From the IMG/VR virus record IMGVR_UViG_3300042346_000356: a stretch of 64,000 nucleotides of DNA. The stretch is one strand, 5' to 3'. The notes under the pieces were generated by a model. It saw only the letters and a list, made by a program, of their open reading frames with translations. It made no database searches and had not been told where the DNA came from. This stretch comes from an uncultured virus (IMG/VR IMGVR_UViG_3300042346_000356). Its lineage: Duplodnaviria > Heunggongvirae > Uroviricota > Caudoviricetes. The translations under genes were made by a program, and so were the position numbers. Each line of letters begins with the position of its first letter. Positions within the stretch are counted from its first letter, which is position 1. Shown in pieces: positions 9,078 through 63,474 of the stretch.

Positions 9078-12000
9078 TTGGCTGATGTAAATGCAAATAT
9101 TGACGTAAATTTAAATACGCAAGAAGCGTTAGCAAATCTACGCAATTTACAGGCAGGCCTCAGCCGATTTAATCAGTCCCTAACGCAGGGCAATGTTGCT
9201 GCCATGGATGCCCAAAAGGGCCTCAACCAACAACTAATTCAGTCAATCAATGCTACTGGAAAGTTTGTTGCAAGCCAAAGAAATGTTTCGTCTAGCACAG
9301 GAGCATTTACTGAGGCACTTGAGAAAAACAAACTCTCAATGCGAGAGTATTTTAGGTTTACAGCAGCAGCAGCCACTGCAAATACTAAATCATTAAAGGG
9401 TGTCTTTGCACAAGAAAGAGACATAATTAACCGTGCTCGCAGAGACAGAGTAAAGGCTTTACAGACACAATACGTTCAACTTACAAATGCCAATGGCGAC
9501 CTTGTCAAGGTTTTGCAGGTAGTTCCAAAACACCTTCAGATGGTGAATGGCAAGTATACTGACTATGCTACAAGAGTTCAGATGGCTGCACAAAGGCAGC
9601 AATTCCTTAATCAGTTACTAAAGCAGGGATCAACACAACTCCTAAACTTTGGTAAGAACACTCAGTGGGCAGGTCGCCAGTTGATGGTTGGTCTAACTGT
9701 TCCGCTTACAATGCTTGGATCATATGCTTCCAAGGCATTTATGGAAATGGAAAAGGCTGTAATTAAATTTACCAGAGTCTATGGCGACATGACGACTAGT
9801 ATGGGTGAAACTGATGCAGCGGTAAAACAGATTCAGACACTTGCAAAAGAATTTACAAAATATGGTATTGCAGTTGTAGATACAGTTACAATGGCAGCAG
9901 ATGCTGCAGCGATGGGTCTAACTGGAAGCGCTCTTACCGCACAGGTTACAGCAGCAACAAGGCTTGCCGTTCTTGGTCAGGTAGAGCAACAGCAGGCACT
10001 AGAAACAACCATATCTTTACAAAATGCTTTTGGAATTTCCTCTGAAGAATTAGCGCACAAAATTAACTTTCTTAACGCAGTTGAGAACCAAACAGTTCTA
10101 TCTATTGAGGATTTAACTACAGCAATTCCAAAGGCTGGACCAGTTGTAAAGCAACTTGGTGGATCTGTAGAAGACCTTGCATTCTTTATGACTGCAATGA
10201 AAGAAGGTGGAATCAACGCATCAGAAGGTGCTAACGCACTTAAGTCTGGTCTTGCGTCTATGATTAACCCAGCAAAAAAGACAAGCGAATTTCTTGCTGG
10301 TCTTGGAATCAACATTAAAGGAATAGTAGATAATAATGCTGGCAATTTAAAAGGAACTGTTGTTGGACTTGCCCAGGCACTTGATACACTAGATCCACTA
10401 AACCGTGCTAGAGCAATTGAGCAACTATTTGGTAAGTTTCAGTTTTCTCGTCTATCAACATTGTTCCAAAACGTTGCAAAAGATTCTTCTCAAGCAGCCA
10501 GAGCATTAGGGTTAGCAGGAGCATCTGTTGAAGAGTTGGCAATTCTATCTGAGAGAGAACTTGGTAAAGTAGAAGATTCAGTAGGCATAAAGTTTAAGAA
10601 ATCCCTTGAAGACCTTAAACTTCAACTTATTCCAGTAGGAAAAGCATTTCTGCAAGCGATTACTCCAATTGTAAAATTTGCAGGAAAAATTCTTGAAAAG
10701 TTTAATAATCTTGGGGACGGAACAAAGAGAGTAATTACAACAATTATTGGCGTTCTAGGATTAGTTGCTCCAGCAGCCCTTATGACATTTGGTCTTGTTG
10801 CTAACGGAGTTGCAAACCTTATTAAGTTGTTTGCAATGATGAGAAATGGTATTGCAAAGTTAAACGGACAAAACAACATTCTTGGCGGAGGGTTTGATTA
10901 TCTTACTCAGGCAGAAACTGAAAACCTTGCACAGTCAAATGCACTTCACCTAACTCACAAAGATCTTATTGATACTTTTAACGTAGAAACAGGAGCAGTA
11001 AATGCTCTTGCATTAGCATATACAAATGCAGCAAGTCAAGCAAGAACTCTTGCCTCTAGTGCTCCAGGCTTGTTTAACACGGTTCCAGGTCCTGCAGGTG
11101 CTGTTTCAGGATTACCAAAAGTAAAGAAGTATGCAGAAGGAATTGTTAGCGTTCCAGGAACTGGTAACAAAGACACGGTTCCAGCAATGCTCACACCTGG
11201 TGAGGCAGTAGTTCCAGCAGGAATTGCACAAAGTCCAACTGGCAAGGCAATGCTTTCTGCACTCATGAATGATAATGTAAGAAAATATAACGGCGGAACT
11301 CTTGGGGTAAACACAAAACAAACAGCAGAAGAATTAGTTAGATTAAATAGAGAAGACTTTGTAGCAGCAGTATCAGCAATGGGTCCAAACCCTAGATCTC
11401 AGGCAGCAATTGCAAAAGAGTTAACAGAAGAATTAACTAAGGCAGCAGAAAGAGTTGGCCCAGAGTTTGCAGATAGACTTAAGTCTGCAATCGCTCAGGG
11501 CTTAGCGGAATTAGAAACTGTTACAGCAAAGGCAATTGAAAACCTTACAAAGCAAACAGACTCAGTAACACAAAGACCTTTTAGAGAACAGTATCATGCA
11601 GCATCTGCTACAAGGTTTGAAGATGAGAATTATGTATTTGGCCATGGGGCTGCTCCAAAGGCAGAGGTAACAGATCCACAAGAATTGCTAAGACTTTCAA
11701 CACAAGCACAAAGAGTAGCAGCAGATGGAACAAGAACTGACACTGGTCTATCAACTTCACTTCGGGGCGCAGCAGAAAATGGTGGTCGTGCGTATGGATT
11801 AAGTAGTTTTGGGTTTATGCTTCCTGAAGCAGCAAATAAAAGAGACGACGGTGGAAACTTTGAAATGCCAAAGGATGAGATTGCTGCTTTGTTTAATGGT
11901 CCAAATGCAGGAAAAACTCTTTCTCCTATCTACCAAGAATGGGCAAGAATACAGGGAACAACTTTAGAAGAAGTATTAAAGGATCCAGCACAATTTGCAA

Positions 12001-15000
12001 GAATGCAACAAAGCATGGAAAGTTATGGAGGAATACTTTCTGATGAAATTAGCAGACTTCCAGAAAATTTTGGAGAAGAAGAGTTTTATGCAGCAGTCGC
12101 TAGAGCAAATGATAGAATTGCTGCTGCTGATACACAGTTAAGTCAAGCAGTAGATAACCTATTAAAGACAACTACATACGCTGTATTTGATCCCAATGAT
12201 GGCAGAGGTGGTCAAGGAAATAGAATTGCAGTTCCTAAAAAGTCTGATGTTCCACTAAGGCAAGAACTTGGATTACAAGATGAAGTTGAAGTAAATGGAA
12301 AAACAGTAAAGTCTTTGCAGGGGACATACCAAAAACAAAATACTGCAAACCTAACGGTTGGATCTACTATAGATCAGGCAAGAGCAGATGGCGCTGCTTT
12401 AGGGGCAGCAGTAATTGATGGCCTCAGAGGTTCAGATGGAACTGCAGCAGGATCTCCCTCTAGGAAAGGTATTAAGGCTGGCAAGGAAGTTGCTGAAGGT
12501 TTGGCTCTTGGAATGCAAGAGGGAACTCCATCAGTCGTTTCTCAATCTGCAAGACTTGGAAATGCAGCAGTTCCTACGGCAGCAGAAACACAAGCAAGAG
12601 TTGACAGGATGGATCTTACTAATAAGGCATTCTACGATGACCTAAACACTCCAGAACTCCTTGAGCAAAGACAGATACTTAAGTCACAAGATAGACAAAG
12701 AAGAAAGCGTGGAGCAACTGCAACGGTAGACTCTATGTCCGATACCCCAGTTTCAACACAAACTACATCATTAACAGTTACATCATCAAAGAGAACAGCA
12801 GATGCTGCTGAAACATTAGCAGTTAAAACAGAAGAAGCAGCAACTGCACAGGCTCAAGTTGTGACACAGATAAAAGATGAAAGTCGTTCACGCATTAAAA
12901 TTAAAGGCAACACGATTAATATTGGTAAGGCTCGTGAAGATGCTGACAAGGCTGAAAATGAAGCAGCAATGACTAGAGCCAGAGCAGCAGCAATTGAAAA
13001 AGAACAGGCAGCACAAAAAGCAAGAAACTCTCCAACAACTATTACTGATGAGCAAGTAAAGGCTGCTAAAGAAAAAGCAAATGAAGCAGAACTAAGATAC
13101 GCTGAAGCAAAACAGAAATGGGCAGAAGCAGAAATTGCTAATGCAGAACAAGATTCTTCACAAGATCCAGTCAAAGCAGCAACAGATGTTAAAAAGGATC
13201 AGCAAATTATTTCTAATGGAACACAAGATCAAGGCGATGGCCTCAGACGTATTGTTGAAGGAACAAATGATACAGCAGAATCTACAACCTTAGTTGCAGA
13301 CAAGACTGATGAACTAGTAGATGCAACATCTGAAACTGTAGATGCACAAACAACCCATGCAGACAATGTTGTTACAAGTAGTGAACTAGCAAATGCAACA
13401 TCTAATAATTTAGAAAATGTAGTTAATGCAACACAGCAGACTGGAATTTCTCAAGAAGATATAGCAAATTCATCAGAAGAGATATCTCAAACCAATGATA
13501 AGATTTCAAAAGAAAAAAGAGAAGCACTTAGACTTGAAGAAGAGGCCAACAGAAAGAAGAGAGCAGAACTTGGTCAGCCACCTTTAAATGGTCCAATACC
13601 GCCAGGAAGTCAGGCTGGTAATAAAATTCCTTCAACCTATGTTGATATTGACAAAGCACTTGCAGAGGCATATGGAACAGATACAACACAGGGATTTACC
13701 CAAAATAAAAAAGGACAGATTATCCTTGATCCAGAAACTGGACAACCAACAACTCTTAGTGAAAAACAAGTTCTTAAGAAGAAGCGTGGAATGCGTAGAG
13801 AAAAGGCTAGTAAGTTTTCTGGAAAAGCAGCAGGTGCTCTTGGTATGGCGACAATGGTTGCAGGTGCAGTTGGTGCACCACCAGCAGTAACTGGCGCTCT
13901 TGGAACCGCAGCAGGTCTTGCACAAATGGCCCCAATGCTTGCTGGCATGGGTCCAGTTGGATGGATTACAGCAGCAATTATAGCAGTTGGTTCTGGACTG
14001 GCTTTATTAAATAAAAGACTTCAAGCATCGTATGCTGCACAAGCAAAATTTGTTCGTGAGACATCTGCTTCAACGCAAAAGATGAAAGAAATTGGAATGA
14101 TAACTGGCAAGGTTGGATCATCTGAATTGATGGAGCGTAAGAGGTCCAGTGGAACTACAAGAGATTACATAGTTAGAGAAAGAAAAGGTTCAGACTTTGG
14201 CGATACCTTCATGCAGTCTGAAGTTGGAAAAAAGATGGGCAAAACACTTCAAGAAAACATTAAAAAGTCTGGTGGAAAAGAAGCAGCACAAGTATTTGCA
14301 ACAGAACTTGCAGCATATGTCCAAGATGGAGTATTAAGCGCAGAGCAAGCACAAAGCATTGCTTATCAGATTGGTGTTAACTTTAAGGACACATCCCTTG
14401 GCATAAAAGTCGATGCATCACTTGCAGCACTTATTGGACCTAATGGAGAAGATCTTACAAAAGATCCTCTTATAGTAGCACTAAGACTAAATACATCAGC
14501 ACAAGGAAAATCAGAAAAGTATTTAGCAGATATGCAAAATGCTATGTATAACGGTAAATCAGGTGCAGTAGAGGCAGCAGGATTAGCAGCATCAGACGCA
14601 GTCGCAGTTCAAACGGCACAAATGCAAGCAGATGCAATTGCCAGAAGGTATGACGATGAAATCAGAACCTTAGAGGCTCAACTTGCACAGACTACAAATA
14701 AAAAGCAACAGATTAAACTTGAAGGTGAGTTAACTGCATTAAAAACAAAGGCAGCAGATGCAGAATTACAAATGAACAATCTTATTGCCAATGCAACAGA
14801 TAATGCAATGAAAAGGTTTAATGAACAAATACAGTATCAAAATGTGTTTATGGATGCAGCAACTCTTGGTTTATATAAACTTTTTGGTGGTGGAAATCAA
14901 AGAGAAGCAGCATACACTCAATCTCTTAATGCAGCGGTAACCGATAAGTATGCAAATACAGAGCAAGCAACACAAGCCACAACAGTTTCGGACAGACTTT

Positions 15001-18000
15001 CAAAGTTTGCCGACGGTAAGACTCTGGGCTTTGGAACAAATAATTATGAAGACGCAGGCTTTGAGAGTGGTAAAGAAGCGCAGTCTTTTGAGATAAAAAT
15101 GAAACTATTGATGGCAAATGGAACTCTTACTCCAAACCAAACAACAGCAATGCTTGATTTATTTGAAGGAAGTCTTCCACAATTAGAAACAGTCTTAAAT
15201 ATTGGAACCAGAATGCATGGCGCTGCTGGCACTACTGAGTTTATGATGCTACTAACAAACTTTCAAGATAAAGAATACGCACAGCAGATAGCACTTGAAG
15301 TAACAACACAGGATAACGATTCATTTAAGAAATTGTCAGACTTGTTTGGTCTTGCATCTTGGCTAGATGGAAAAGAAATTAATATGGAGGTTGTTGTTAA
15401 AGAAATGGGTGGAGTTTCTGGAATGCAATACTACATTGACAGACTGGACGAACTTGAGGTTAAGATTAAGGACCTTAAGGGTGGAGAAGTAACTCTAGAT
15501 GTCGTAACTCAATTTACAAATGATACAAGTGTAAAGGTTGATCAGGGATTCTTAGATTATATAAATAAAGAGTTTAAGGGAGATGCTAAAAAACAATCAG
15601 ATGCAATAAGGACATACACAATGGTTTACAACCAGATCATGTCTATGGACTATGCAAGTCAAGAAGCAAGAAATTACTTTGAGGCACAAGCAAATCAAAT
15701 AGCGGTTGATAAATTAAATGAACTTAGAAAAGCGGGAAATGCTCCAGCAGACATTAATACTTATATTGTTCAGCAGACCAAACTTGAAATTGATGCATTG
15801 ATTACAAAGGTAAAGGTAGATCCTACTGCTGTAGCCTCTGCAAAAACTCAGATTGCATTAGGAACTCTTCCAGTAATTGATCCAAATGCAGCAGGCGCTG
15901 TAAAGACTCCAACTGGAGGCAAAGCAGATAATCCATTAGACTTCTTGGATGCTCTTGGAATGCGTATTAAGATGATCAGAGATCAATCATTTAAAGCAAC
16001 TAAGTCAATTGAGTCTATGCTTGCAGCGTTTAGAAGTAAGGCTGCACAAAAAGATGCTTCCAATATGTTTACTTTGTTTGACGGCTTGCAACAAAGACTT
16101 ATTGCTTTAAAGGCACCAAAAGAGTTTAGAGATTATATTGCAGGGCTTGACGCAAAGGGATTAGAGGCATTAAAAAATAAAGATGCTGACCCAACTAAAA
16201 AGGGTAATCAGTCAATGTTTACCTATGAAACTAAAAAAGTTAAAGGTAAGACCGTTGTTGATAAAAGTAGAATTGCTGGTTTCTCTGAAGCAGGAAAAGC
16301 ATTTATGGCAGCATACAATGAGGCTCCCCTAGCAGAGTTTAATGTTGAACAAGCAGAAGCAATTCAAAATACAAATAATCAGTATAAGGCTTTTGCAATG
16401 CTTAAGGCTGGAGGAGTAGACACTGCAAAGGCTTTAGATGCTGTGTCTAATGCAGCAGTTGCTGCAGCCCTAACCTCTGGCTTACTTGCAAAAACAGACT
16501 TAAAGAAGTATATTGAAGATATAAAAACTTCCAATGCTGCATTACAAAAACAAGCAGTAATTAATGACCTACTAGCAAAAAATTCAGCAATGGAGTTTGC
16601 TGCAGGCACTATGCCAAAACTTGCTTCTGCACTAAAGGTTGCTGGATACTCTGTTGAACAAATTGCAACAGTGTTAGAAGATCCAAACCTTGCAAAAGAA
16701 TTAATGGATGATCTTGCAGATGGAAAGATTGACTCAAAGGCAATCTCAGATTATTTAAATAATATCAAGGGTCAAAAGATTGTTGAGATTAAGGGTAAGT
16801 TTAATGCTGGCGACTTTGCAGCAGCAGCAGCACCTGGTATGGAACTTGTTAACAGAATGTTTGCTGTTCAAGAACAACTTATCAGAACTGGTGTGGATGC
16901 TAGATCTACAGCAATGGTTAAGAGATTAAAGGATAATAAAGCAGCCAATGAAAAGGCTCAGTTAGATATTCAGAATATAACATTTAATCAGATTAGACCA
17001 ATTCAAAAAACAATTGAAGACATGCAACGAAAGATGGAACTTGAGATTATTCGTGTTATTGAAGCATATCAGGAAGAAATCAGCGACATGCAAAGAGTTA
17101 TTGAACTTGCATTCGAAAGACCGATTCAAAAGATTAATGAACAGAATGCACAATTAACTCACGACCTCGATGTAATGAATCATGCTGCAGAGCAGATCAA
17201 TAAGAGTTATGATGATCAGGCTACAGCACTTTCTAAGGTAGCAGAAGTTAATGCTCAAATTGTTAATCAGCAAAAGCAGCAGTTAGGTCTTGCGGACGCT
17301 CTATCACAAGGTGACATTGCAGCAGCAGCCCGTGCAGCGCAAGAAATGAGAGCATCTCAGGCAGATACAAATGCAGAGAATGCATCAAAGGCTTTAGAAC
17401 AATCTAGACAAAACGAACTTAATAGCCTTAGAGGAGAAAAGTCTGGACTAACAAGAGATGAGATTTTAGAAAAGCAATATCAGAATGCTCAAAAGATATA
17501 TGAACTTGAAAACACAGCAACTACCAAGGTTGGCAATGAAATGCTTACAAGGCTACAACTCCTCGACAGAATTCAGACAAAGCAAGATGATATATATGCC
17601 TTAGAAGAAAAAAGAGAGGCAGCGCAACTTGCTATTCGTGCAAAAGAAGACGAGATTTATAATATAAATAAAAAGCAAATAGAACCTTTGCAAGATGGAA
17701 TAGATGCAAGAAATAACCAAATTGCAAATGACGAATACTCTATGCAACAACTTGTTGATAATATTAGAGTTCAAGGTCAGACTAGAGATCACTGGGATGC
17801 AGTCGCAGCAAAGATTGAGGCATCTTCAGTCGCAGGACAAGACTTTGATAACCTTATGGGATCAATGCTTGCTTCAGTTCAAAAAATTGAAGATGGTTGG
17901 TCAAAGATTAATGAAACTATTGGATTAAATGCTAATGGTGTTACCATGGGTGCTGCAGCAGTTAAAAAGGCTATACTTGAAGAGTCTGCTGCCCTTGACA

Positions 18001-19283
18001 AGGCTGCAAAAGAAGAAGCAGATAGAGCAGCAGCAAAACAAGCAGCAGCCCTTGCAGATTACGAAGCCAAGAAAAAAATCTATGATGCTGAAATGGAAGC
18101 AATAAAAGCATTAAGAGCAGCAGGGGATAATGGAGTTGCTAATGCACGAGCATCAGCGCTTGGTGCTGGACCAGTCAAGCCAAACTTTGATCCTACTGAA
18201 GCAGCGGACAATCCAAATGTTTCTTACAATAATACATCTGTTAATACCGCAGATCAATACAGAAAAGATAATCTTAAGGGTGTAAAACCATCAACATCCA
18301 ACGGCACATCATCAGGCGGTGGCTCAGGTGGCTCTGGTGGCGGTGGCGGTGGCGATCAAAACACTAAGCCAGTATGGAAACCAGCAACATATACTAAGGA
18401 TTCAAAAAAGCCAGTTTTGGCAGACTACACTAAAAAATATGGAGCCGATGAGGGTAAGAGAGCATACTATGCTGATGCAGCCGCCTGGTCAAAAGCAACA
18501 GGAAAATCTTCTGGAATTAAATTTACTCCAACAACATATACAAAGAATTCAAAAAAACCAGTTATGGAAGATTATGAAAAATATGATGTTGATAGAAATA
18601 AAAATTATTACGTAGATCTTGCTGCATGGGAAAAAGCAACAACTGGAAAAGTTACGCCTTCAATTACTGCAGCAAAAGATCCAGCAAATGCAGGAGAAGA
18701 TCCAAGAAACTATAGCATGAAAAAACCTTTGGGGTCATACCAAAATCCATGGCAGTTAATTGCCAATAGGTCACTATCCAAGGAAGAACAAGAGACAAAG
18801 ATGCTCGTTATTGATAAGCCAGATACTATAAATGACCCAAATGACTATGTGACTAATGGCATTTTAAATAAACATGGACTAGCCATGATCGGGATGCAGA
18901 TGAACACTTCCTACAATCCAGACAAGAAGAGGGAGGGAACGCACGTTAGATATGGAAACTACATATATAAACTTATTAGTGGAAGACTAAACAAACTTGC
19001 TTCTGGTGGAATGGTTATGCAAAACATTCCTTCATTTGGAACAGACACAGTCCCCGCCATTCTTAGTCCAGGAGAATTTGTAATGAGCAAATATGCTGTT
19101 AATGCTCACGGAGCAGATAATATGAGAGCCATTAATAATGGCACAGCAATTGGCGAATCAGTGTATAATTATAACCTAAGCGTTAATGTAAAATCTGATG
19201 CAAATCCTGACGACATTGCAAGAGTCGTTATGGCACAAATCAGGGGTATTGACTCACAAAGAGTTAGGGGAAATAGACTATAA
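9078..19283 (+). CDS. Tape measure protein (3401 aa)
   Basis: TP901-like core, Ala-rich helices, two DTVPAxLxPGE motifs, position; TTG start after GAGGG. Confidence 0.93.
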   Translation: MADVNANIDVNLNTQEALANLRNLQAGLSRFNQSLTQGNVAAMDAQKGLNQQLIQSINATGKFVASQRNVSSSTGAFTEALEKNKLSMREYFRFTAAAATANTKSLKGVFAQERDIINRARRDRVKALQTQYVQLTNANGDLVKVLQVVPKHLQMVNGKYTDYATRVQMAAQRQQFLNQLLKQGSTQLLNFGKNTQWAGRQLMVGLTVPLTMLGSYASKAFMEMEKAVIKFTRVYGDMTTSMGETDAAVKQIQTLAKEFTKYGIAVVDTVTMAADAAAMGLTGSALTAQVTAATRLAVLGQVEQQQALETTISLQNAFGISSEELAHKINFLNAVENQTVLSIEDLTTAIPKAGPVVKQLGGSVEDLAFFMTAMKEGGINASEGANALKSGLASMINPAKKTSEFLAGLGINIKGIVDNNAGNLKGTVVGLAQALDTLDPLNRARAIEQLFGKFQFSRLSTLFQNVAKDSSQAARALGLAGASVEELAILSERELGKVEDSVGIKFKKSLEDLKLQLIPVGKAFLQAITPIVKFAGKILEKFNNLGDGTKRVITTIIGVLGLVAPAALMTFGLVANGVANLIKLFAMMRNGIAKLNGQNNILGGGFDYLTQAETENLAQSNALHLTHKDLIDTFNVETGAVNALALAYTNAASQARTLASSAPGLFNTVPGPAGAVSGLPKVKKYAEGIVSVPGTGNKDTVPAMLTPGEAVVPAGIAQSPTGKAMLSALMNDNVRKYNGGTLGVNTKQTAEELVRLNREDFVAAVSAMGPNPRSQAAIAKELTEELTKAAERVGPEFADRLKSAIAQGLAELETVTAKAIENLTKQTDSVTQRPFREQYHAASATRFEDENYVFGHGAAPKAEVTDPQELLRLSTQAQRVAADGTRTDTGLSTSLRGAAENGGRAYGLSSFGFMLPEAANKRDDGGNFEMPKDEIAALFNGPNAGKTLSPIYQEWARIQGTTLEEVLKDPAQFARMQQSMESYGGILSDEISRLPENFGEEEFYAAVARANDRIAAADTQLSQAVDNLLKTTTYAVFDPNDGRGGQGNRIAVPKKSDVPLRQELGLQDEVEVNGKTVKSLQGTYQKQNTANLTVGSTIDQARADGAALGAAVIDGLRGSDGTAAGSPSRKGIKAGKEVAEGLALGMQEGTPSVVSQSARLGNAAVPTAAETQARVDRMDLTNKAFYDDLNTPELLEQRQILKSQDRQRRKRGATATVDSMSDTPVSTQTTSLTVTSSKRTADAAETLAVKTEEAATAQAQVVTQIKDESRSRIKIKGNTINIGKAREDADKAENEAAMTRARAAAIEKEQAAQKARNSPTTITDEQVKAAKEKANEAELRYAEAKQKWAEAEIANAEQDSSQDPVKAATDVKKDQQIISNGTQDQGDGLRRIVEGTNDTAESTTLVADKTDELVDATSETVDAQTTHADNVVTSSELANATSNNLENVVNATQQTGISQEDIANSSEEISQTNDKISKEKREALRLEEEANRKKRAELGQPPLNGPIPPGSQAGNKIPSTYVDIDKALAEAYGTDTTQGFTQNKKGQIILDPETGQPTTLSEKQVLKKKRGMRREKASKFSGKAAGALGMATMVAGAVGAPPAVTGALGTAAGLAQMAPMLAGMGPVGWITAAIIAVGSGLALLNKRLQASYAAQAKFVRETSASTQKMKEIGMITGKVGSSELMERKRSSGTTRDYIVRERKGSDFGDTFMQSEVGKKMGKTLQENIKKSGGKEAAQVFATELAAYVQDGVLSAEQAQSIAYQIGVNFKDTSLGIKVDASLAALIGPNGEDLTKDPLIVALRLNTSAQGKSEKYLADMQNAMYNGKSGAVEAAGLAASDAVAVQTAQMQADAIARRYDDEIRTLEAQLAQTTNKKQQIKLEGELTALKTKAADAELQMNNLIANATDNAMKRFNEQIQYQNVFMDAATLGLYKLFGGGNQREAAYTQSLNAAVTDKYANTEQATQATTVSDRLSKFADGKTLGFGTNNYEDAGFESGKEAQSFEIKMKLLMANGTLTPNQTTAMLDLFEGSLPQLETVLNIGTRMHGAAGTTEFMMLLTNFQDKEYAQQIALEVTTQDNDSFKKLSDLFGLASWLDGKEINMEVVVKEMGGVSGMQYYIDRLDELEVKIKDLKGGEVTLDVVTQFTNDTSVKVDQGFLDYINKEFKGDAKKQSDAIRTYTMVYNQIMSMDYASQEARNYFEAQANQIAVDKLNELRKAGNAPADINTYIVQQTKLEIDALITKVKVDPTAVASAKTQIALGTLPVIDPNAAGAVKTPTGGKADNPLDFLDALGMRIKMIRDQSFKATKSIESMLAAFRSKAAQKDASNMFTLFDGLQQRLIALKAPKEFRDYIAGLDAKGLEALKNKDADPTKKGNQSMFTYETKKVKGKTVVDKSRIAGFSEAGKAFMAAYNEAPLAEFNVEQAEAIQNTNNQYKAFAMLKAGGVDTAKALDAVSNAAVAAALTSGLLAKTDLKKYIEDIKTSNAALQKQAVINDLLAKNSAMEFAAGTMPKLASALKVAGYSVEQIATVLEDPNLAKELMDDLADGKIDSKAISDYLNNIKGQKIVEIKGKFNAGDFAAAAAPGMELVNRMFAVQEQLIRTGVDARSTAMVKRLKDNKAANEKAQLDIQNITFNQIRPIQKTIEDMQRKMELEIIRVIEAYQEEISDMQRVIELAFERPIQKINEQNAQLTHDLDVMNHAAEQINKSYDDQATALSKVAEVNAQIVNQQKQQLGLADALSQGDIAAAARAAQEMRASQADTNAENASKALEQSRQNELNSLRGEKSGLTRDEILEKQYQNAQKIYELENTATTKVGNEMLTRLQLLDRIQTKQDDIYALEEKREAAQLAIRAKEDEIYNINKKQIEPLQDGIDARNNQIANDEYSMQQLVDNIRVQGQTRDHWDAVAAKIEASSVAGQDFDNLMGSMLASVQKIEDGWSKINETIGLNANGVTMGAAAVKKAILEESAALDKAAKEEADRAAAKQAAALADYEAKKKIYDAEMEAIKALRAAGDNGVANARASALGAGPVKPNFDPTEAADNPNVSYNNTSVNTADQYRKDNLKGVKPSTSNGTSSGGGSGGSGGGGGGDQNTKPVWKPATYTKDSKKPVLADYTKKYGADEGKRAYYADAAAWSKATGKSSGIKFTPTTYTKNSKKPVMEDYEKYDVDRNKNYYVDLAAWEKATTGKVTPSITAAKDPANAGEDPRNYSMKKPLGSYQNPWQLIANRSLSKEEQETKMLVIDKPDTINDPNDYVTNGILNKHGLAMIGMQMNTSYNPDKKREGTHVRYGNYIYKLISGRLNKLASGGMVMQNIPSFGTDTVPAILSPGEFVMSKYAVNAHGADNMRAINNGTAIGESVYNYNLSVNVKSDANPDDIARVVMAQIRGIDSQRVRGNRL

Positions 19284-59345: not shown

Positions 59346-59778
59346 GTAGCAATACCTTATCACTACAAATTCCATAAATATTATTGTAGTTTCTTGTATC
59401 AGTTGTTTCTAGATCAACTATAATTGAGTTGGGTCCAACTTCCATTCCTGGATATGTCCATACCTTGTTATTACTTGTTAATGTAAAATCATCTAATTGA
59501 TGCCAAAAGTAATTGTATGTTGGAAAATATTTGATGAAATGGTTTAAGGCTTCTAGATTTTTACAATGAAACCAGGAGTGACTAGATATCCTATAAAAGT
59601 CTTCTGGTGAAAGTAAATGTTTAGGTTCATCGTGTCCAAGGTATAGTTTGCCATCTATTGCCCAAATATCTACTTCAACATTAAACCCTAGGTTGATAGC
59701 ACTTGTTAGTTGATCTACCGTGTTTTCTGTTTCTGGGTTTGGACCAGAGATATTTCCTCTATGCGCTATTAATATCAA
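59332..59778 (-). CDS. Glycerophosphodiester phosphodiesterase-like protein
   Basis: IAHRGN, EN, VEVD, LGHD, GICSD; TTG start coupled to the upstream stop. Confidence 0.75.
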   Translation of the reverse strand: MILIAHRGNISGPNPETENTVDQLTSAINLGFNVEVDIWAIDGKLYLGHDEPKHLLSPEDFYRISSHSWFHCKNLEALNHFIKYFPTYNYFWHQLDDFTLTSNNKVWTYPGMEVGPNSIIVDLETTDTRNYNNIYGICSDKVLLLKTS

Positions 59779-61112
59779 TTGTGCTTCTCCAAAAATATTG
59801 CAAGGTCCTCTGGAGTTCCAAGTCCCCACATCTCATAAATCTTTTCAGATTTAATAATCTTTTCATCTTTAATTGCCTCATTGTAGACTGGACATATATA
59901 AAATTCATTATTTGTTTTATTTCCAGATGAAATCATTTGATTTGTATATTTAATAAAGTCTGCTCCAGTTTTCCAATAATATATGCCACACGTAGCCTCA
60001 TCACTAATAGCATTTTTTTCAGCAACAGCCCCAACAAATCCAAACTTATTTTGTTTTACAAACGACCACTTGCTGTCAGTAGCAGAAAATGTTAGGATTC
60101 CCCCATCAATACCACTTCTTATAAATTCTTTTATTGTCCTCTTACTATTCCATACAACATACTGATCAGAGTTTGCAATAATAAGTGGTGAATCATTATC
60201 TATATAATCTTTTGCTAAAAGTGCAGATTTTGCAGCACCATCTAATCTGCCGTCTTGTAATATTAAGGTGAAGTCTTTGCACATTAGAGACAGATGACCA
60301 GATATATTATGCTTATCTTCGTCTTCTTTTCTTGCAACAAAGATATAGTGAGCATCTATACCTATATTATCTATGACTAATTCAATCATACTTTTATCGT
60401 TTACATTTATTAATGGTTTGGGCATATGATAACCAACCGATCTAAATCTAGATCCTTCGCCTGCCATTGGAATCAACACATTTGGCTTTTGTTTTAAACC
60501 AGATAATTCATTTTGTATTTTTGTTAAGGTTAGGTCTGATCTATTTTTTATTGTTACTAGACGTGCACCAGAAAGTATTGCTGCCGTTCTTCCAGTGTAA
60601 CTATCTTCAAATATTGTTGTTGAATGCTTGCTTGCTTCAAGTTTATCTATGCACACATTATACATATCTGGGCTCGGCTTTGGATTGACTACATCCTCAT
60701 TGCTTATATAGAAGTCAATTATATCAATAACTCCAAGAGATGTTAGACAGGCCTTAAGGGTTTTATTAATACTATTACTTGCCACTGCCAACTTTATGTT
60801 ATTATTTTTGATTGTAGTAAATATCTGAATAAGTTCTTCATCTTTTTTTAGCATCTCAAAAAAAGATATAGACTTTTCTTGCTTAGACTTCCAAATTTGA
60901 TCGTAATAGTGCTCTGGTAATCCACGTGTATCTGTAAGTATTTTTAATTTCTGATTTGTTGTTAATCCCTCAAAGGTATTCTTTTGATCATCCTCATTGA
61001 TAGTATATTTAGGGTCAACCTGCTCTAAGGCTTGGTTTAAAGATAGGTGGTGTATTTCTTTACTATCCACCAAAACACCGTCTAAATCAAAAACAAAAAG
61101 TTTATTGCTCAC
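59775..61112 (-). CDS. HAD phosphatase fused to a sugar nucleotidyltransferase-like domain
   Basis: FDLDGVL, KPSP, FEDS; IPMAGEGSRF, PKPLI, LGTPEDL. Confidence 0.85.
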   Translation of the reverse strand: MSNKLFVFDLDGVLVDSKEIHHLSLNQALEQVDPKYTINEDDQKNTFEGLTTNQKLKILTDTRGLPEHYYDQIWKSKQEKSISFFEMLKKDEELIQIFTTIKNNNIKLAVASNSINKTLKACLTSLGVIDIIDFYISNEDVVNPKPSPDMYNVCIDKLEASKHSTTIFEDSYTGRTAAILSGARLVTIKNRSDLTLTKIQNELSGLKQKPNVLIPMAGEGSRFRSVGYHMPKPLINVNDKSMIELVIDNIGIDAHYIFVARKEDEDKHNISGHLSLMCKDFTLILQDGRLDGAAKSALLAKDYIDNDSPLIIANSDQYVVWNSKRTIKEFIRSGIDGGILTFSATDSKWSFVKQNKFGFVGAVAEKNAISDEATCGIYYWKTGADFIKYTNQMISSGNKTNNEFYICPVYNEAIKDEKIIKSEKIYEMWGLGTPEDLAIFLEKHN

Positions 61113-61152
61113 AAAATCTCTTTCCTAGTCTATACTATTATACACCAGATAG

Positions 61153-61226
61153 TAGAGCAGGTAGGACTTGAACCTACGATAACCGAATTATGAGTTCGGG
61201 GCCTTAACCAACTTGGCTACTGCTCC
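61153..61226 (-). tRNA. tRNA with CAT anticodon (elongator Met or Ile2)
   Basis: GGAGCAG/CTGCTCT acceptor, CCGAA-CTCATAA-TTCGG arm, GTAGG-TTCAAGT-CCTAC T-arm. Confidence 0.9.
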
Positions 61227-61236
61227 TTATACAGTA

Positions 61237-61265
61237 AGTATACTGTCGCTAGCGGCTATTGTCAA
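61237..61265 (-). promoter_or_regulatory. Promoter for tRNA(CAT)
   Basis: TTGACA-17 nt-TATACT. Confidence 0.8.
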
Positions 61266-61880
61266 CTATTGTTTGTTATATCTATCAATAACCTTATTAT
61301 AAAGTGATTCTGAAATAGAAAGATATTCTTTTATTTCTTTCAACTCTAAAATTTTTTGAACATTTTCAACACCCTTATCTGATTTGTCTCTTGGGTATCT
61401 TCTTTTATCAGTAGTTAGACTATTTAATATTTCAGAAAGAGGATTATCAAAAAAGTTATTATTTTTTATTTTTGTTTTTTGAATTTCTGATAAATTATTG
61501 TCTATTGCAAGTTTTATAAAAATATCTTTTGTCTTTGTTGTAAAGTCTTCAAATGACAATATGTAAAAATTTTCATTATCTAATATGTCATTAAAGTAAC
61601 CTATCTGTCTATCAATTAGTTGTTTAGCAACAAAAGTTAGATCCTCTTCGTGTCCATACTCATTCTCATTTATTCCAAAAAGCAACGAAGACGTTAGTGT
61701 CTTTTTTGGATCCCTAGCAGTTACAAATACCTTGTAGTCTTTATAGTTTATATCTGTTCCAATTGTAGAGTCCTTGCTTTTATTGTGTGTAGTTATTACA
61801 TCATTAAATATATGATTAAGGCAGTGTGATACAAAATGGGTTCCAGTTCTTTCTAAAGTGTAAACAAGTATTGGCTTCAT
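61266..61880 (-). CDS. Sulfotransferase-like protein
   Basis: LERTGTHF (5'-PSB-like), ARDP...S (3'-PB-like), LSFEDF. Confidence 0.6.
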   Translation of the reverse strand: MKPILVYTLERTGTHFVSHCLNHIFNDVITTHNKSKDSTIGTDINYKDYKVFVTARDPKKTLTSSLLFGINENEYGHEEDLTFVAKQLIDRQIGYFNDILDNENFYILSFEDFTTKTKDIFIKLAIDNNLSEIQKTKIKNNNFFDNPLSEILNSLTTDKRRYPRDKSDKGVENVQKILELKEIKEYLSISESLYNKVIDRYNKQ

Positions 61881-61888
61881 CTGATTGT

Positions 61889-62359
61889 CTACTGCCCCTT
61901 AGTTAATCTAATTACTTTGTCTCTAGAGATATCGCTTGTCTTGCTAAGTTCTCCATTTAAATACATATTTTTTACATCGTCAGATGTTACAGTCCAATAC
62001 TCAACAACAGGAAATGTTGTAATATCAGCAAGGAAATACCCATCAACCAGATCCAACTTATCAATGAAACCTTTTTCATCAAAACTTCTACCGCTACCTT
62101 TCATATTGCTGGGGCAAAAATAAACTCCCTGTTTAGTAACTGATCTAACTTCCCATATCCTACCGCTGTGATCCTTAAAGTCATATGGAGCGCCTTCAGA
62201 TTCTGGCAGGGTTCCAAAAGCAACTTCATTGCAAAGTCTGCGTTCAATTAAGAATGATATGCGCCTTCCATCAGTAAAATACTTTATTGTATCTTCTTCA
62301 GATATGCCCATTGCTGTTGAAAGTAGTTTAACATCCCAAATAAGAACGCCTTTATACAT
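61889..62359 (-). CDS. Hypothetical protein, possible PD-(D/E)XK nuclease fold
   Basis: E...YD...WEVR. Confidence 0.4.
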   Translation of the reverse strand: MYKGVLIWDVKLLSTAMGISEEDTIKYFTDGRRISFLIERRLCNEVAFGTLPESEGAPYDFKDHSGRIWEVRSVTKQGVYFCPSNMKGSGRSFDEKGFIDKLDLVDGYFLADITTFPVVEYWTVTSDDVKNMYLNGELSKTSDISRDKVIRLTKGQ

Positions 62360-62520
62360 TATTTGGCCAACAAACCGATTAGAAGGCCAATGAGAAAAGA
62401 TCCAATACCAATTACCCAGTGATATGATTGTTTTAGATAATCTCTAATAATTCTAAGTTGAATATCTTCTGGAACATCAATCTCATACTTAGAATCAACA
62501 TCGATAGTGTATATACGCAT
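62359..62520 (-). CDS. 53-aa protein with a C-terminal TM helix
   Basis: Manual translation; TAATG coupling at both ends. Confidence 0.6.
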   Translation of the reverse strand: MRIYTIDVDSKYEIDVPEDIQLRIIRDYLKQSYHWVIGIGSFLIGLLIGLLAK

Positions 62521-62624
62521 TAGTGCTCCTTTTTAATATGACGATTAAGGGTTTCCATTGCAAATATTCCCCATCTAACTTCTATACCACGCTTACATTT
62601 TGGACAAGTAACTTCTCTACTCAC
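62520..62624 (-). CDS. 34-aa single C2H2-type zinc-finger peptide
   Basis: MSREVTCPKCKRGIEVRWGIFAMETLNRHIKKEH. Confidence 0.55.
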   Translation of the reverse strand: MSREVTCPKCKRGIEVRWGIFAMETLNRHIKKEH

Positions 62625-62709
62625 CCTGATCAACTCCGTATGTCATTTGAATGTAGCATACTGCCCATCCCGCAAGAAAAGCGGGAATTAAAAATAGTGC
62701 GTGAATCAT
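62617..62709 (-). CDS. 30-aa hydrophobic peptide
   Basis: AGGAGG RBS; downstream of the TTGACT-17 nt-TATACT promoter (62737..62765). Confidence 0.55.
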   Translation of the reverse strand: MIHALFLIPAFLAGWAVCYIQMTYGVDQGE

Positions 62710-62767
62710 GTTATCCTCCTAAATGGTTATATATAAAGTATACTCCTACTTACTTAAAAAGTCAAAT

Positions 62768-62883
62768 TGAGCAGTTTATAGACGACTGCTCAGGTCTATT
62801 AGCCACGAAGGTTCGACTCCTGCCAACTCTCCACTCGAAGGAGCATCCGTTGTAAAACCTTTTAAAGTCTCATAGCGGAATGC
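62768..62883 (-). ncRNA. Candidate structured small RNA 1 (~116 nt)
   Basis: Own TATAAT, three stem-loops including a T-loop-like TTCGAGT, 3' pseudoknot motif. Confidence 0.6.
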
Positions 62884-62906
62884 TATATATTATACTATAG
62901 TTTTAA

Positions 62907-62974
62907 TGAGCAGTTTTTTACAGTCATGCTCAGGACCATACCAGTTATTTATTGTCGCTGTCTCCCCCGACAAT
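62907..62974 (-). ncRNA. Candidate structured small RNA 2 (~68 nt)
   Basis: Same CTATAGTATAAT element, 7-bp hairpin, same 3' pseudoknot motif. Confidence 0.55.
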
Positions 62975-62983
62975 TAGATTATA

Positions 62984-63388
62984 CTATAGAATTTCTATAG
63001 TCTTGGGTAGTTTGTCTTCTGGGATCTGCTTTTCAAGTCTGATATCTAGGATACCGTCCTTGAATTCAGCCCCAACAACTTCTACAAACTCAGGAAGGGT
63101 GAAGATATCTGTGAACTTGCGAGCAGCAATTCCCTTGTGTAGATACTCTGCGCCCTCTGGCAATTCAGCATCCTGCTTCTCGCCCTTGATTGTAAGTTTG
63201 CGATTGTCTAGCGATACTGAAACATCATCCTTAGAGAACCCAGCCAAAGCAAATGAAAGAATATACTCTGTATCATTTAGTTTGATTTGGTTATAAGGTG
63301 GATAGTTTGTTGTTGTTGTTACCTTCTGTAGATTTGAGAAGGTGTTAAAAAATGGATCATTAAAAAGATCCAGTGCTGTTTTTACCAT
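62984..63388 (-). CDS. Small heat shock protein (Hsp20/IbpA-like)
   Basis: NYPPYN, ALAGF, YLHKGIAAR, DGIL. Confidence 0.95.
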   Translation of the reverse strand: MVKTALDLFNDPFFNTFSNLQKVTTTTNYPPYNQIKLNDTEYILSFALAGFSKDDVSVSLDNRKLTIKGEKQDAELPEGAEYLHKGIAARKFTDIFTLPEFVEVVGAEFKDGILDIRLEKQIPEDKLPKTIEIL

Positions 63389-63389
63389 A

Positions 63390-63440
63390 TTATTCCCCTT
63401 TCAAGCGAATAAGTTAATTTACCCCCCATTTGGGCAGGTA
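63390..63440 (-). promoter_or_regulatory. Structured Hsp20 5' UTR (RNA thermometer candidate)
   Basis: Shine-Dalgarno sequence inside the imperfect hairpin TTATTCGCTTGAAAGGGGAATAA. Confidence 0.55.
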
Positions 63441-63474
63441 TAAATATTATAGCACAGTATGCTACAATTGTAAA

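What the first reader, a model, noticed from the sequence alone, without database searches (positions are those of the whole stretch)
62768..62989. Tandem pair of small RNAs sharing an identical promoter 12-mer and a covarying 3' pseudoknot
Seen on the minus strand, in a ~220-nt gap with no credible ORF: CTATAGTATAAT occurs twice (62978-62989 and 62889-62900). Each copy is followed by a different hairpin domain and then the same motif: GTC-CTGAGCAT-GAC-TGTAAAAAAC-TGCTCA and GAC-CTGAGCA-GTC-GTCTATAAAC-TGCTCA. The stem-1 arms are swapped (GTC/GAC versus GAC/GTC), and the loop TGAGCA pairs perfectly with the downstream TGCTCA across an A-rich linker, which describes an H-type pseudoknot. RNA 1 also has GCATTCCG/CGGATGC, a T-arm-like CTCC-TTCGAGT-GGAG, and GTTGGC/GCTAAT stems. 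Inference: modular phage sRNAs with a protective or terminating 3' pseudoknot; possible roles are tRNA/Y-RNA mimicry, antitoxin mimicry or protein sponging.
Basis: partly seen in the sequence, partly recalled or inferred. Interest (0 to 1): 0.78.

Follow-up and report, generated by a model that had tools for sequence, protein, structure and literature searches.

The report
Phage small RNAs ending in pseudoknots
Next to its heat-shock gene, a lake phage carries two short non-coding RNA cassettes that each end in the same tiny knotted fold, a fold that many unrelated phages place at the ends of genes and that closely resembles a plant-virus RNA known to stop enzymes moving along RNA.

Summary
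The 12-mer occurs exactly twice. The CUGAGCA...UGCUCA element also occurs exactly twice in 64 kb, and both copies are on the minus strand in the gap after hsp20.

The element is a real H-type pseudoknot. It belongs to a family found in at least 131 viral contigs. Both helices show compensatory changes, and no Rfam 15 family matches.

The 115-nt RNA (62883-62768) has four covariation-supported helices and a conserved -10 element. It lies on either side of hsp20 in relatives. The upstream unit is a short form of a second widespread cassette. The tandem looks like an 89-bp cassette inserted between identical promoter 12-mers.

The knot's core matches the published plant-virus "coremin" Xrn1-resistant motif in its Watson-Crick variant, but it lacks that motif's second hairpin.

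Most likely (about 0.5) the knot marks and shields the 3' end of the RNA upstream. It moves with the upstream unit, lies at least 5 nt after stop codons, and sits 12 nt before the next promoter. The main rival is a 5'-to-3' roadblock. The function of the small RNAs is unknown.

Earlier reports of this scan found the same knot and RNA in other genomes.

The parts
62984..63388 (-). hsp20 (small heat-shock protein) gene. Its TAG stop lies inside the first 12-mer.
   Evidence: Pfam HSP20, E 1.6e-16. 245 relatives in viral contigs, 80 of them fetched.
62978..62989 (-). 12-mer copy 1, CTATAGTATAAT: a -10-type promoter element (TATAAT) that overlaps the hsp20 stop.
   Evidence: Exact repeat. TAnAAT is kept 5-8 nt before the same hairpin in 94 distinct contexts, including one with a full TTGACA-18-TATAAT (L395). 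No -35 here.
62954..62971 (-). 5' hairpin of unit 1: GUCG-GGGGAGACAG-CGAC (extendable to 62973-62952).
   Evidence: The window has the short form, lacking the extra 5' hairpins of the long forms.
62907..62937 (-). Pseudoknot 1. Stem 1 is GGUC (62937-62934) with GACU (62925-62922). Loop is C-UGAGCA-U. Linker is GUAAAAAAC. The 3' strand UGCUCA (62912-62907) pairs with the loop.
   Evidence: Model R1: 31.5 bits, E 6.3e-07. Family covariation. Relatives have AGUC/GACU.
62889..62900 (-). 12-mer copy 2: -10 element of unit 2. It is the right-hand copy of the direct repeat that flanks the 89-bp unit-1 cassette.
   Evidence: The T..TA.AAT columns are invariant in 38 homologues. Most relatives have this element directly at the hsp20 stop.
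62798..62883 (-). Body of unit 2 (RNA2). Stem A is 62883-62876 with 62849-62843 and encloses an inner hairpin. Hairpin B is 62843-62829 (loop UUCGAGU). Stem C is 62827-62822 with 62803-62798 and encloses hairpin GGAG-UCGAAC-CUUC.
   Evidence: 38 distinct homologues with 98.3% of cells paired. Compensatory changes at 72-86, 75-83, 90-115 and 91-114 of alignment A2. Invariant G.U pairs fix the strand. The MFE fold agrees.
62768..62797 (-). Pseudoknot 2. Stem 1 is AGAC (62797-62794) with GUCU (62783-62780). Loop is C-UGAGCA-GUC. Linker is AUAAAC. The 3' strand is UGCUCA (62773-62768). The GU of the insertion can extend stem 2 to 8 bp.
   Evidence: Model R1: 38.4 bits, E 7.4e-09. Invariant in 38 homologues apart from the third inserted base. 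RNAalifold finds the 8-bp form.
62737..62765 (-). Sigma-70-type promoter TTGACT-17-TATACT, starting 3 nt after pseudoknot 2, for the small downstream ORFs.
   Evidence: 10 of 12 consensus matches.
62617..62709 (-). First downstream ORF (30 aa, hydrophobic), preceded by AGGAGG.
   Evidence: No Pfam or PADLOC family.

Best explanation
The gap after hsp20 holds two non-coding cassettes in tandem. Each consists of a -10 promoter, a structured RNA body and one copy of a roughly 30-nt H-type mini-pseudoknot.

The knot has this anatomy:
- a 3-5 bp stem 1 closed by C-G;
- a loop C-U-GAGCA-W;
- an A-rich linker ending in AAAC;
- a 3' strand UGCUC that pairs with the loop.

It is a widespread phage module. 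In this phage lineage it is the fixed 3' end of several unrelated small-RNA bodies and is followed about 12 nt later by the next promoter.

Most likely the knot defines and shields the 3' end of the RNA upstream of it. It would act as a compact mechanical block to 3'-to-5' exonucleases after read-through transcripts are cut in the A/U-rich stretch behind it. For copy 2, whose stem 2 can reach 8 bp before a U-rich tail, it may also act as a weak terminator. RNA1 and RNA2 would then accumulate as stable small RNAs.

The tandem arose when an 89-bp cassette (unit 1 body + knot + promoter) was inserted by recombination between identical promoter 12-mers.

Shown here: the sequence features, both helices, the RNA2 fold, and the way the knot moves with the upstream unit.
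Inferred: transcription starts, RNA ends, nuclease resistance, and the function of the RNA bodies (unknown; the conserved loops suggest a protein partner).
For: The knot is real:
- Stem 1 pairs in register in 93 of 129 distinct copies, against 3-13 of 129 at shifted offsets.
- Two stem-1 pairs are 82 of 82 paired: one shows four pair types, the other three.
- Stem 2 shows compensatory changes at 3 of its 5 core pairs, and four of those five pairs are 36 of 36 paired.

The knot belongs to the upstream unit:
- All 38 distinct RNA2 homologues end in it, whether RNA2 lies after or before hsp20.
- hsp20 keeps the same promoter and leader with or without a knot upstream.
- A DUF932 gene keeps its knot with or without the following tRNA.
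- 78 of 115 copies lie within 40 nt after a same-strand stop. The minimum stop-to-CC distance is 8 nt, which is about 5 nt from the stop to stem 1.
- One variant copy sits at a convergent gene junction.

A 5'-side role makes no sense for copies followed by a promoter: 30 of 44 contexts in hsp20 loci have TAnAAT 11-14 nt after the knot.

It is not an efficient terminator:
- tRNAs start 4-13 nt after 14 of 115 copies, and none lies upstream.
- 84 of 115 copies have a co-oriented ORF starting within 120 nt.

Cassette insertion: 4 of 80 hsp20 loci have the tandem, 3 have unit 1 alone, and the other 48 of the 55 matching loci match the unit-2 part.

RNA-library contigs from two studies span most of the stretch, and a third touches 32 nt of it.
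Against: - No RNA ends could be mapped; only contigs were available, and DNA carry-over is possible.
- The closest published relative, coremin, is known to block enzymes that come from the 5' side, not the 3' side (PMC6546385, PMC10520033; passages read).
- Any stable hairpin could cap a 3' end, so the strong sequence conservation of loop, linker and stem 2 is not explained.
- In many relatives unit 1's knot is followed by a Shine-Dalgarno sequence and a gene with no promoter between, so there it sits in a 5' leader.
- Folding energies of the two RNAs are not better than shuffles.
- The 12-mers lack a -35.
Confidence: 0.5

Rival explanations
1. The knot is a coremin-like roadblock for machines that arrive from the 5' side: RNase J exonuclease, scanning RNase E, or ribosomes leaving the upstream stop codon. 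It would insulate and protect the RNA downstream (the next cistron or a tRNA), as xrRNAs do in eukaryotic viruses.
For: - The core matches the published Watson-Crick coremin variant: a C-G closing pair, a 1-nt first loop, a GAG/CUC stem-2 core, a UUAAA-type linker and a trailing A (PMC10321173, passages; compared).
- Coremin stalls Xrn1 and scanning ribosomes and stimulates -1 frameshifting (PMC10520033, PMC10321173).
- The 5-nt minimum spacing after stops places the knot at the ribosome's mRNA entrance (ribosome geometry is from my own knowledge).
- Copies lie 4-13 nt before tRNAs, and often about 10-15 nt before a Shine-Dalgarno sequence (by eye; an SD-like motif lies within 30 nt downstream in 34 of 139 copies against 14 upstream).
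- True copies in genome contigs come from Clostridia, Saccharibacteria, Actinomycetota, Chloroflexota, Aminicenantes and Cyanobacteria. None of the 15 comes from Pseudomonadota or Bacteroidota, which by my count of titles make up 45 of the 119 loci.
- RNase J is present above cut-off in 4 of 5 such genomes.
Against: - The second hairpin that coremin needs for Xrn1 resistance is absent. Only 17 of 114 copies have any hairpin starting 0-4 nt after the knot, against 33-44 of 114 at control offsets.
- At the 3' end of a non-coding RNA followed by a new promoter, as for both window copies, a 5'-side block protects nothing of the cassette itself.
- The knot moves with the upstream unit, not the downstream one.
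Confidence: 0.2
2. The knot is a transcription terminator of an unusual, pseudoknotted kind. Stem 2 would play the part of the terminator hairpin, pre-organised by stem 1.
For: - In hsp20 loci a U-rich tail follows the knot directly (for example AUUUCUUAU), and a new promoter comes next.
- A minority of copies elsewhere are followed by runs of 5 or more U.
- Copy 2's stem 2 can reach 8 bp.
- One copy lies at a convergent junction.
Against: - tRNAs and co-oriented genes follow most copies with no room for a promoter.
- Copy 1 has no U-tract.
- The terminator scan lists neither copy.
- Stem 2 has only 5 bp in most copies.
Confidence: 0.1
3. The knot is a specific binding site for a protein or small molecule that controls neighbouring genes. 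Comparable cases are the T-even gene 32 operator pseudoknot and a preQ1-I-like aptamer.
For: - Loop, linker and stem 2 are far more conserved than a purely structural role needs.
- The architecture resembles the T-even gene 32 pseudoknot and preQ1-I, with a 1-nt first loop and an A-rich last loop (recalled, not tested).
- Copies cluster in a few kb of small early-type genes rather than after all genes: 1 to 8 copies per genome record among 5 records, 4 of them at least 98% complete.
Against: - No Rfam riboswitch matches at E<=10.
- Neighbouring genes are diverse: DUF932 in 16, Hsp20 in 3 and ribonucleotide reductase in 3 of 78 upstream ORFs, and most have no family.
- Copies before tRNAs and after non-coding RNAs do not fit gene-specific control.
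- No co-occurring protein was found.
Confidence: 0.1
4. The knot mimics a tRNA acceptor arm and is cut or tailed by tRNA enzymes (RNase P, RNase Z, the CCA-adding enzyme). It would then serve as punctuation of phage operons, like tRNAs in mitochondrial transcripts.
For: - Stacked stems 1 and 2 give about 9-11 bp.
- The 3' strand is followed by A-CCA in 16 of 115 copies, and G is almost absent from the next three positions.
- Copies stand directly before tRNAs.
Against: - CCA follows in only 14% of copies, and many of these come from related loci.
- The base after stem 2 is variable.
- There is no tRNA-model hit.
- This reading was not tested further.
Confidence: 0.05
5. The repeat acts at the DNA level, as an inverted-repeat operator (TGAGCA...TGCTCA) or a recombination site, and the RNA fold is incidental.
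For: - It has perfect 6-bp inverted half-sites.
- It lies at about -20 to -50 of the next promoter in hsp20 loci.
- Cassette shuffling occurs around it.
Against: - Stem 1 covaries between a position outside the inverted repeat and one inside its spacer, which no operator model predicts.
- G.U pairs and the strict co-orientation with genes fix a strand.
Confidence: 0.03

Closest known systems
Coremin motif (xrRNA-C) and its Watson-Crick variant xrRNA-WCC of beny-, cucumo- and picorna-like RNA viruses (Dilweg, Olsthoorn and co-workers: PMC6546385, PMC10520033, PMC10321173; passages read)
   Same: - A short first hairpin of 3-5 bp with a pyrimidine-purine (C-G) closing pair and a freely covarying stem.
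- A single bridging base.
- Loop bases GAG pairing with CUC downstream.
- A UUAAA-type A-rich spacer and a trailing A.
- Total size under 30 nt.
- Occurs in tandem or in several copies, in untranslated or intergenic RNA.
   Different: - Found in DNA phages, not eukaryotic RNA viruses.
- The loop is 8 nt, and stem 2 has 5 bp instead of 3.
- The obligatory second hairpin is absent.
- It is placed at the 3' side of genes and small RNAs.
- Resistance to any nuclease is untested.
PeSL composite terminator/promoter cassettes of T4-like phages (PMC2839356, search listing only; PMC4122927, abstract and introduction read)
   Same: - A small structured element directly followed by an early-type promoter.
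- It is repeated between small genes of a variable region.
- Indels are bounded by the repeats; here the 89-bp unit lies between two 12-mers.
   Different: - The structured part is a pseudoknot, not a stem-loop.
- This phage is not T4-like: it has a portal, a protease, an HK97-type head protein, DnaB and a large polymerase.
- The cargo here is non-coding RNA.
Compact H-type pseudoknots of luteovirus frameshift sites and of the T-even gene 32 mRNA operator (recalled from my own knowledge; no sequence compared)
   Same: - A classical H-type fold with a 1-nt first loop across the deep groove.
- An A-rich last loop lying along stem 1.
- About 28-36 nt long.
   Different: - Those act on a translating ribosome or bind gp32 at a single locus.
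- This one lies after stops, before tRNAs and at the ends of small RNAs, in several copies, with no reading-frame pattern in its spacing.
Intrinsic terminators and intercistronic mRNA-stabilising hairpins such as REP-type elements (own knowledge)
   Same: - Position just after stop codons and at the ends of units.
- The proposed protection of the upstream RNA.
   Different: - The fold is a pseudoknot with a conserved sequence.
- Most copies have no U-tract.
- Downstream genes and tRNAs must be read through it.

Membership tests
xrRNA-C / xrRNA-WCC (coremin) | First hairpin of 3-5 bp whose loop-closing pair is 5' pyrimidine - 3' purine; stem sequence free | tested here: met
   C-G closing pair in 82 of 82 and 36 of 36 copies. 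The neighbouring pairs covary with three to four pair types.
xrRNA-C / xrRNA-WCC (coremin) | Loop consensus YGAD or YGNNAD (octaloops tolerated in one tested case) | tested here: inconclusive
   The loop is CUGAGCAW (8 nt). It contains UGAG but does not follow the published 4- or 6-nt consensus (PMC10520033).
xrRNA-C / xrRNA-WCC (coremin) | Conserved A-rich spacer (UUAAAC...) after hairpin 1 | tested here: met
   The linker ends in AAA in 36 of 36 copies, followed by C in most, and is preceded by W-rich bases.
xrRNA-C / xrRNA-WCC (coremin) | Loop-spacer pseudoknot (3 Watson-Crick pairs, GAG/CUC, in the WCC type) | tested here: met
   GAG/CUC is part of a 5-bp stem 2. Compensatory changes occur at 3 of the 5 pairs.
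xrRNA-C / xrRNA-WCC (coremin) | Second hairpin directly after the spacer, required for Xrn1 resistance | tested here: not met
   17 of 114 copies have a hairpin starting 0-4 nt downstream, against 33-44 of 114 at control offsets.
xrRNA-C / xrRNA-WCC (coremin) | Stalls a 5'-to-3' exoribonuclease | not testable with these tools
   Needs an enzyme assay.
Intrinsic (Rho-independent) terminator | G+C-rich hairpin immediately followed by a U-tract | tested here: not met
   The scan lists neither copy. Copy 1 is followed by UUAAAAC and copy 2 by AUUUGACUUUUU.
Intrinsic (Rho-independent) terminator | Stands at the end of a transcription unit | tested here: not met
   A tRNA lies 4-13 nt downstream of 14 of 115 copies. 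A co-oriented ORF starts within 120 nt of 84 of 115 copies.
PeSL (promoter-early stem-loop) cassette | Structured element plus early promoter as one composite repeat that bounds indels | tested here: met
   TAnAAT lies 11-14 nt after the knot in 30 of 44 contexts. The 89-bp unit lies between 12-mers and is present in 4 of 80 loci.
PeSL (promoter-early stem-loop) cassette | Found in hyperplastic regions of T4-like myoviruses | tested here: not met
   Window genes are portal, protease, HK97-type head protein, DnaB and polymerase families, not T4 core genes.
Any Rfam 15 family (tRNA, YrlA/Y RNA, preQ1-I, DUF805 and others) | Match to the family covariance model | tested here: not met
   0 matches at E<=10 in 62600-63100. 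Only 3 tRNAs in the window at gathering score. 0 matches at E<=1 in 9 related loci.
Type III toxin-antitoxin RNA (ToxI-like) | Fixed-period tandem repeats next to an endoribonuclease toxin gene | tested here: not met
   The two knots lie 139 nt apart behind different bodies. No toxin model hits 10 neighbouring proteins.

The most novel reading that the evidence does not exclude
The phage mini-pseudoknot is the prokaryotic counterpart of the coremin-type xrRNA of eukaryotic RNA viruses. It would be a knot of under 30 nt that mechanically stops enzymes moving along RNA. Phages of many phyla would use it as general punctuation between genes, tRNAs and small RNAs, and here as the portable 3' cap of a family of modular, promoter-driven small RNAs linked to hsp20. 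RNA2 would in addition carry a stretch antisense to a tRNA's anticodon-to-T-arm region, which could let it pair with tRNA or tRNA fragments.
Probability: 0.3. Interest if true: 0.8.

Novelty: new variant of a known kind. Interest (0 to 1): 0.6.

Why it matters
If the knot does stop nucleases or ribosomes, it would be the first coremin-like resistant RNA known in DNA phages and in bacteria. It would also be one of the smallest natural RNA roadblocks. Its reach across phages of distant hosts would point to a general, uncatalogued way for phages to set the ends and lifetimes of their transcripts.

It would also give a ready-made 28-nt part for stabilising RNAs in bacteria.

The two RNA bodies belong to large, uncatalogued families of lake-phage small RNAs tied to hsp20. 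Their function is open, and it can be tested once a host-phage pair is in culture.

Tried and rejected
- Rfam at gathering score and at E<=10 found nothing for the region or for 9 related loci.
- BLAST of 62600-63400 against 50,697 phage records gave no match.
- The window's own assembly is not held. The nearest record, G001, does not reach this region.
- I tested for a helix between the two flanks of the knot. The observed mean was 3.95 against 3.85 +/- 0.08 for shuffled partners, so there is none.
- I tested for a coremin-type second hairpin and found none.
- Upstream gene families do not unify the copies.
- Read-through or frameshift signal: stop-to-knot distances of 8, 9, 10, 11, 12, 13... 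show no period of 3.
- Folding z-scores are not informative.
- RNA runs: no contig of the four RNA libraries lay on 62300-62750. The tool states that this proves nothing.
- Papers: searches for the motif letters, for phage/pseudoknot/intergenic, for pseudoknot/intercistronic/exonuclease and for coremin/xrRNA found no description of this element in phages. Three papers on structured-RNA discovery were searched by term (pseudoknot, phage, tRNA and similar) and none of the passages shown describes it. bioRxiv supplements are closed, and I did not open the supplementary tables of PMC10690425, so a listing there cannot be excluded.
- RNase J in host genomes (4 of 5) is too weak to weigh either way.
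- Complex prediction, structure prediction and the protein homology searches were not needed.
Full report
**What is at the site**

On the minus strand the order is as follows:
- hsp20 (63388-62984);
- the 12-mer CTATAGTATAAT (62989-62978, containing the TAG stop);
- a hairpin GUCG-GGGGAGACAG-CGAC (62971-54);
- a first pseudoknot (62937-62907);
- the second 12-mer (62900-62889);
- a 115-nt structured stretch that ends in a second pseudoknot (62883-62768);
- a TTGACT-17-TATACT promoter (62765-62737);
- small ORFs.

The 12-mer is exact twice and occurs nowhere else. The knot pattern is found twice where 0.02 is expected. No minus-strand ORF of 30 aa or more lies in the gap.

**The knot is a family, not a coincidence**

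These gave 137 matches and 129 distinct copies, 82 of them of one length class.

Stem 1:
- The three bases before CC pair with the three bases two positions after CCUGAGCA in 93 of 129 copies, against 3-13 of 129 at other offsets.
- In a gap-free alignment of the 82 copies, two stem-1 pairs are paired in 82 of 82. One of them shows four pair types and the other three.
- 0 of 500 shuffles reach the observed covariation.
- A model built from these copies finds only the two window sites, at 38.4 and 31.5 bits.

Stem 2:
- Stem 2 was fixed by my pattern, so I tested it on copies found in other ways.
- A descriptor that leaves stem 2 free found 215 GAGCA/UGCUC, 8 GGGUA/UACCC and 1 GGGCA/UGCCC copies in the held loci, plus one AAAUA/UAUUU hit in L047. 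A shuffle of the same loci gave 1 hit in total, so that single hit is at the chance level.
- Copies beside the unit-1 hairpin and in four phage genome regions added GAGUA/UACUC, AAGCA/UGCUU and UAGCA/GGCUA.
- I hand-picked 36 of the 74 distinct model hits: all variant forms of the 25-nt length class plus typical ones. The frequencies are therefore not population estimates.
- In that set, pairs 12-32, 13-31, 14-30 and 15-29 are 36 of 36 paired, and three of them show compensatory changes. Pair 16-28 is paired in 30 of 36. The outermost U-A (11-33) is not a conserved pair, at 22 of 36.
- Two copies of other length classes break a stem-2 pair (L395, L404).

AGAC/GUCU is invariant and is the register the model aligns. 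The inserted GU can instead extend stem 2 to 8 bp.

**Context of the family**

After dropping 14 of the 129 copies that lack stem 1, 115 remained.
- 78 lie within 40 nt after a same-strand open frame of at least 60 codons.
- Among those 78, the distance from the stop to CC is never 0-7 nt. It piles up at 8 (19 copies) and 9 (10 copies). Two copies at -5 are overlaps.
- 14 copies are followed by a same-strand tRNA 4-13 nt later, and none has one upstream.
- 84 copies have a co-oriented ORF starting within 120 nt.
- The flanks are G-poor and do not pair with each other.

In 5 phage genome records, 4 of them at least 98% complete and one an estimated 35% fragment, there are 1 to 8 copies. Where there are several they lie mostly within a few kb of small genes, so the knot does not follow every gene. 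Upstream genes are diverse.

Genome contigs also hold true copies:
- 15 of 121 pattern matches pass the stem-1 test. The rest look like chance, with a flat length spread.
- By their titles these 15 come from Clostridia, Saccharibacteria, Eggerthellaceae, Anaerolineae, Aminicenantes, Calothrix and others.
- None comes from Pseudomonadota or Bacteroidota, which by my count make up 45 of the 119 loci.

**The two RNA bodies**

RNA2 (62883-62798 plus knot 2):
- It has 38 distinct homologues among the held loci.
- A structure of stem A with an inner hairpin, hairpin B, stem C with an inner hairpin, and the knot is 98.3% paired.
- There are compensatory changes in hairpin B and stem C, and invariant G.U pairs fix the minus strand.
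- The MFE fold agrees, but its energy is ordinary.
- The -10 element is invariant.

Of the 80 hsp20 loci, 55 match the window's 301-nt stretch:
- 4 match the whole tandem (L132, L133, L135, L139);
- 3 match unit 1 only;
- 48 match the RNA2 part, which lies either directly after the hsp20 stop or about 70 nt before the hsp20 start.

By my count of the table, 77 of the 80 loci have a knot within about 140 nt of hsp20. Other bodies share RNA2's AUUCCG...CGGAU stem and the knot but carry different inner domains.

Unit 1:
- In 94 distinct contexts it stands 5-8 nt after a TAnAAT element, usually at the end of an hsp20 homologue.
- At least 57 of the 94 are followed by the knot. My pattern missed variant knots, so this is a lower bound.
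- Many others run into a different RNA that precedes a tiny HNH gene.
- Long forms carry one or two extra 5' hairpins, and the window has the short form.
- The genes after unit 1 vary: nuclease, zinc-ribbon, Dps-like, kinase-like and HNH. It is therefore not a gene-specific leader.

**Expression**

Four RNA-library runs from four studies hold parts of the stretch as contigs.
- One 314-nt contig (X23) covers 62768-62971 with 18 differences and continues into unlike sequence on both sides, including the long-form 5' hairpin.
- X19 has several contigs within 62792-62996.
- X21 touches 32 nt.
- hsp20 is covered in all four runs.

Contigs show neither RNA ends nor strand, and DNA carry-over cannot be excluded.

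**Comparison with known elements**

Earlier reports of this scan on other genomes described the same knot and RNA2-like RNAs. Some of them named the plant-virus coremin motif, and I checked that lead in the papers.

Coremin is a 3-4 bp hairpin with a C-G closing pair and a YGAD loop (longer loops are tolerated). It is followed by a conserved UUAAAC-type spacer and then a second hairpin that Xrn1 stalling requires. It stalls Xrn1 and scanning ribosomes and promotes -1 frameshifting (PMC6546385 and PMC10520033, passages). A Watson-Crick variant pairs loop GAG with spacer CUC and is followed by A (PMC10321173, passages).

The phage knot shares:
- the closing pair;
- the single bridging base;
- the GAG/CUC core;
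- the A-rich linker;
- the trailing A.

Its stem 2 is lengthened to 5 bp. It lacks the second hairpin: the region just after the knot is depleted of hairpins, with 17 of 114 copies against 33-44 of 114 at control offsets. I therefore do not file it as a coremin member, but I treat it as a close structural analogue.

In hsp20 loci a -10 element follows the knot by 11-14 nt in 30 of 44 contexts. Together with the 89-bp unit bounded by the 12-mers, this parallels the PeSL terminator/promoter cassettes of T4-like phages (PMC4122927, abstract and introduction). This phage itself is not T4-like.

**Mechanism**

Two readings remain.

The knot may serve the RNA upstream, as a 3' end mark and shield. 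For this reading:
- it moves with the upstream unit (RNA2 in both positions; the DUF932 gene with or without its tRNA);
- hsp20 keeps the same promoter and leader with or without a knot before it;
- both window copies end a non-coding body and are followed by a promoter, where a block to 5'-entering enzymes would protect nothing of the cassette;
- the 5-nt minimum after stops fits a fold that must stay intact while ribosomes terminate (ribosome geometry is from my own knowledge).

It cannot be an efficient terminator, because tRNAs and genes are read through it.

The knot may instead serve the RNA downstream, as a roadblock to enzymes or ribosomes arriving from the 5' side. For this reading:
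- the published activity of coremin;
- the positions before tRNAs and ribosome-binding sites;
- the absence of true copies from Pseudomonadota and Bacteroidota;
- RNase J above cut-off in 4 of 5 genomes that hold copies.

I give 0.5 to the 3'-end reading and 0.2 to the 5'-roadblock reading. The rest goes to the terminator, specific-ligand, tRNA-mimic and DNA-level readings. None of this was tested at the RNA level.

**Verdict**

The element is ordinary in the sense that this scan has met it repeatedly. It is absent from Rfam 15 and from the papers I could search, and its likeness to coremin gives a concrete, testable mechanism.

Noticed in passing
window 61889-62359 (-): The 156-aa ORF three genes downstream matches PADLOC's type II restriction enzyme model (REase_II, E 1.7e-38), so this is a phage-borne restriction-endonuclease-like gene. 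It has no Pfam or PHROG hit.
   Followed up: partly
window 62768-62830 (+ strand, antisense of RNA2 stem C and knot 2): The antisense strand aligns with the phage's own tRNA-Arg from the anticodon loop through the T arm (score 32; 0 of 300 shuffles reach it). It aligns more weakly with tRNA-Met and tRNA-Asn T arms. No tRNA is called there. RNA2 may have captured, or may pair with, a tRNA 3' half.
   Followed up: partly
window 63389-63460 (-); L147, L169 and others at 2431-2500: The hsp20 promoter (TGnTATAAT) and a 5' leader with a CCUGCCC-AAAU-GGGGGG hairpin are the same in the window and in relatives, whatever lies upstream. This could be a temperature-sensing leader; I did not examine it.
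   Followed up: no
L332, L344, L376, L402 and similar loci: In many contigs the unit-1 hairpin is followed not by the knot but by another conserved RNA-like stretch that runs into a tiny HNH endonuclease gene. No Rfam match.
   Followed up: partly
L150 4753-4779 (-) and 8 similar loci: A knot variant with two compensatory stem-2 changes (GGGUA/UACCC) lies 13 nt after a minus-strand gene's stop, at a convergent junction that overlaps the stop of the opposing gene.
   Followed up: partly
window 63000-63450: hsp20 of this phage group is strongly represented in contigs of four freshwater, river and estuary RNA libraries (summed contig depths in the hundreds to thousands in three of the four runs). 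This suggests it is among the most abundant phage messages there.
   Followed up: no
window 59775-61112 (-): A 445-aa fusion of a HAD-type phosphatase and a sugar-nucleotidyl-transferase domain sits next to tRNA-Met.
   Followed up: no
window 61226-61270 and 61120-61151 (-): By eye, tRNA-Met is preceded by a TTGACA...TATACT promoter-like pair and followed by TGGTGTATAAT. The tRNA seems to be its own small unit, without a knot.
   Followed up: no
window 9078-19283 (+): A single 3401-aa ORF lies in the structural region. I did not examine it.
   Followed up: no
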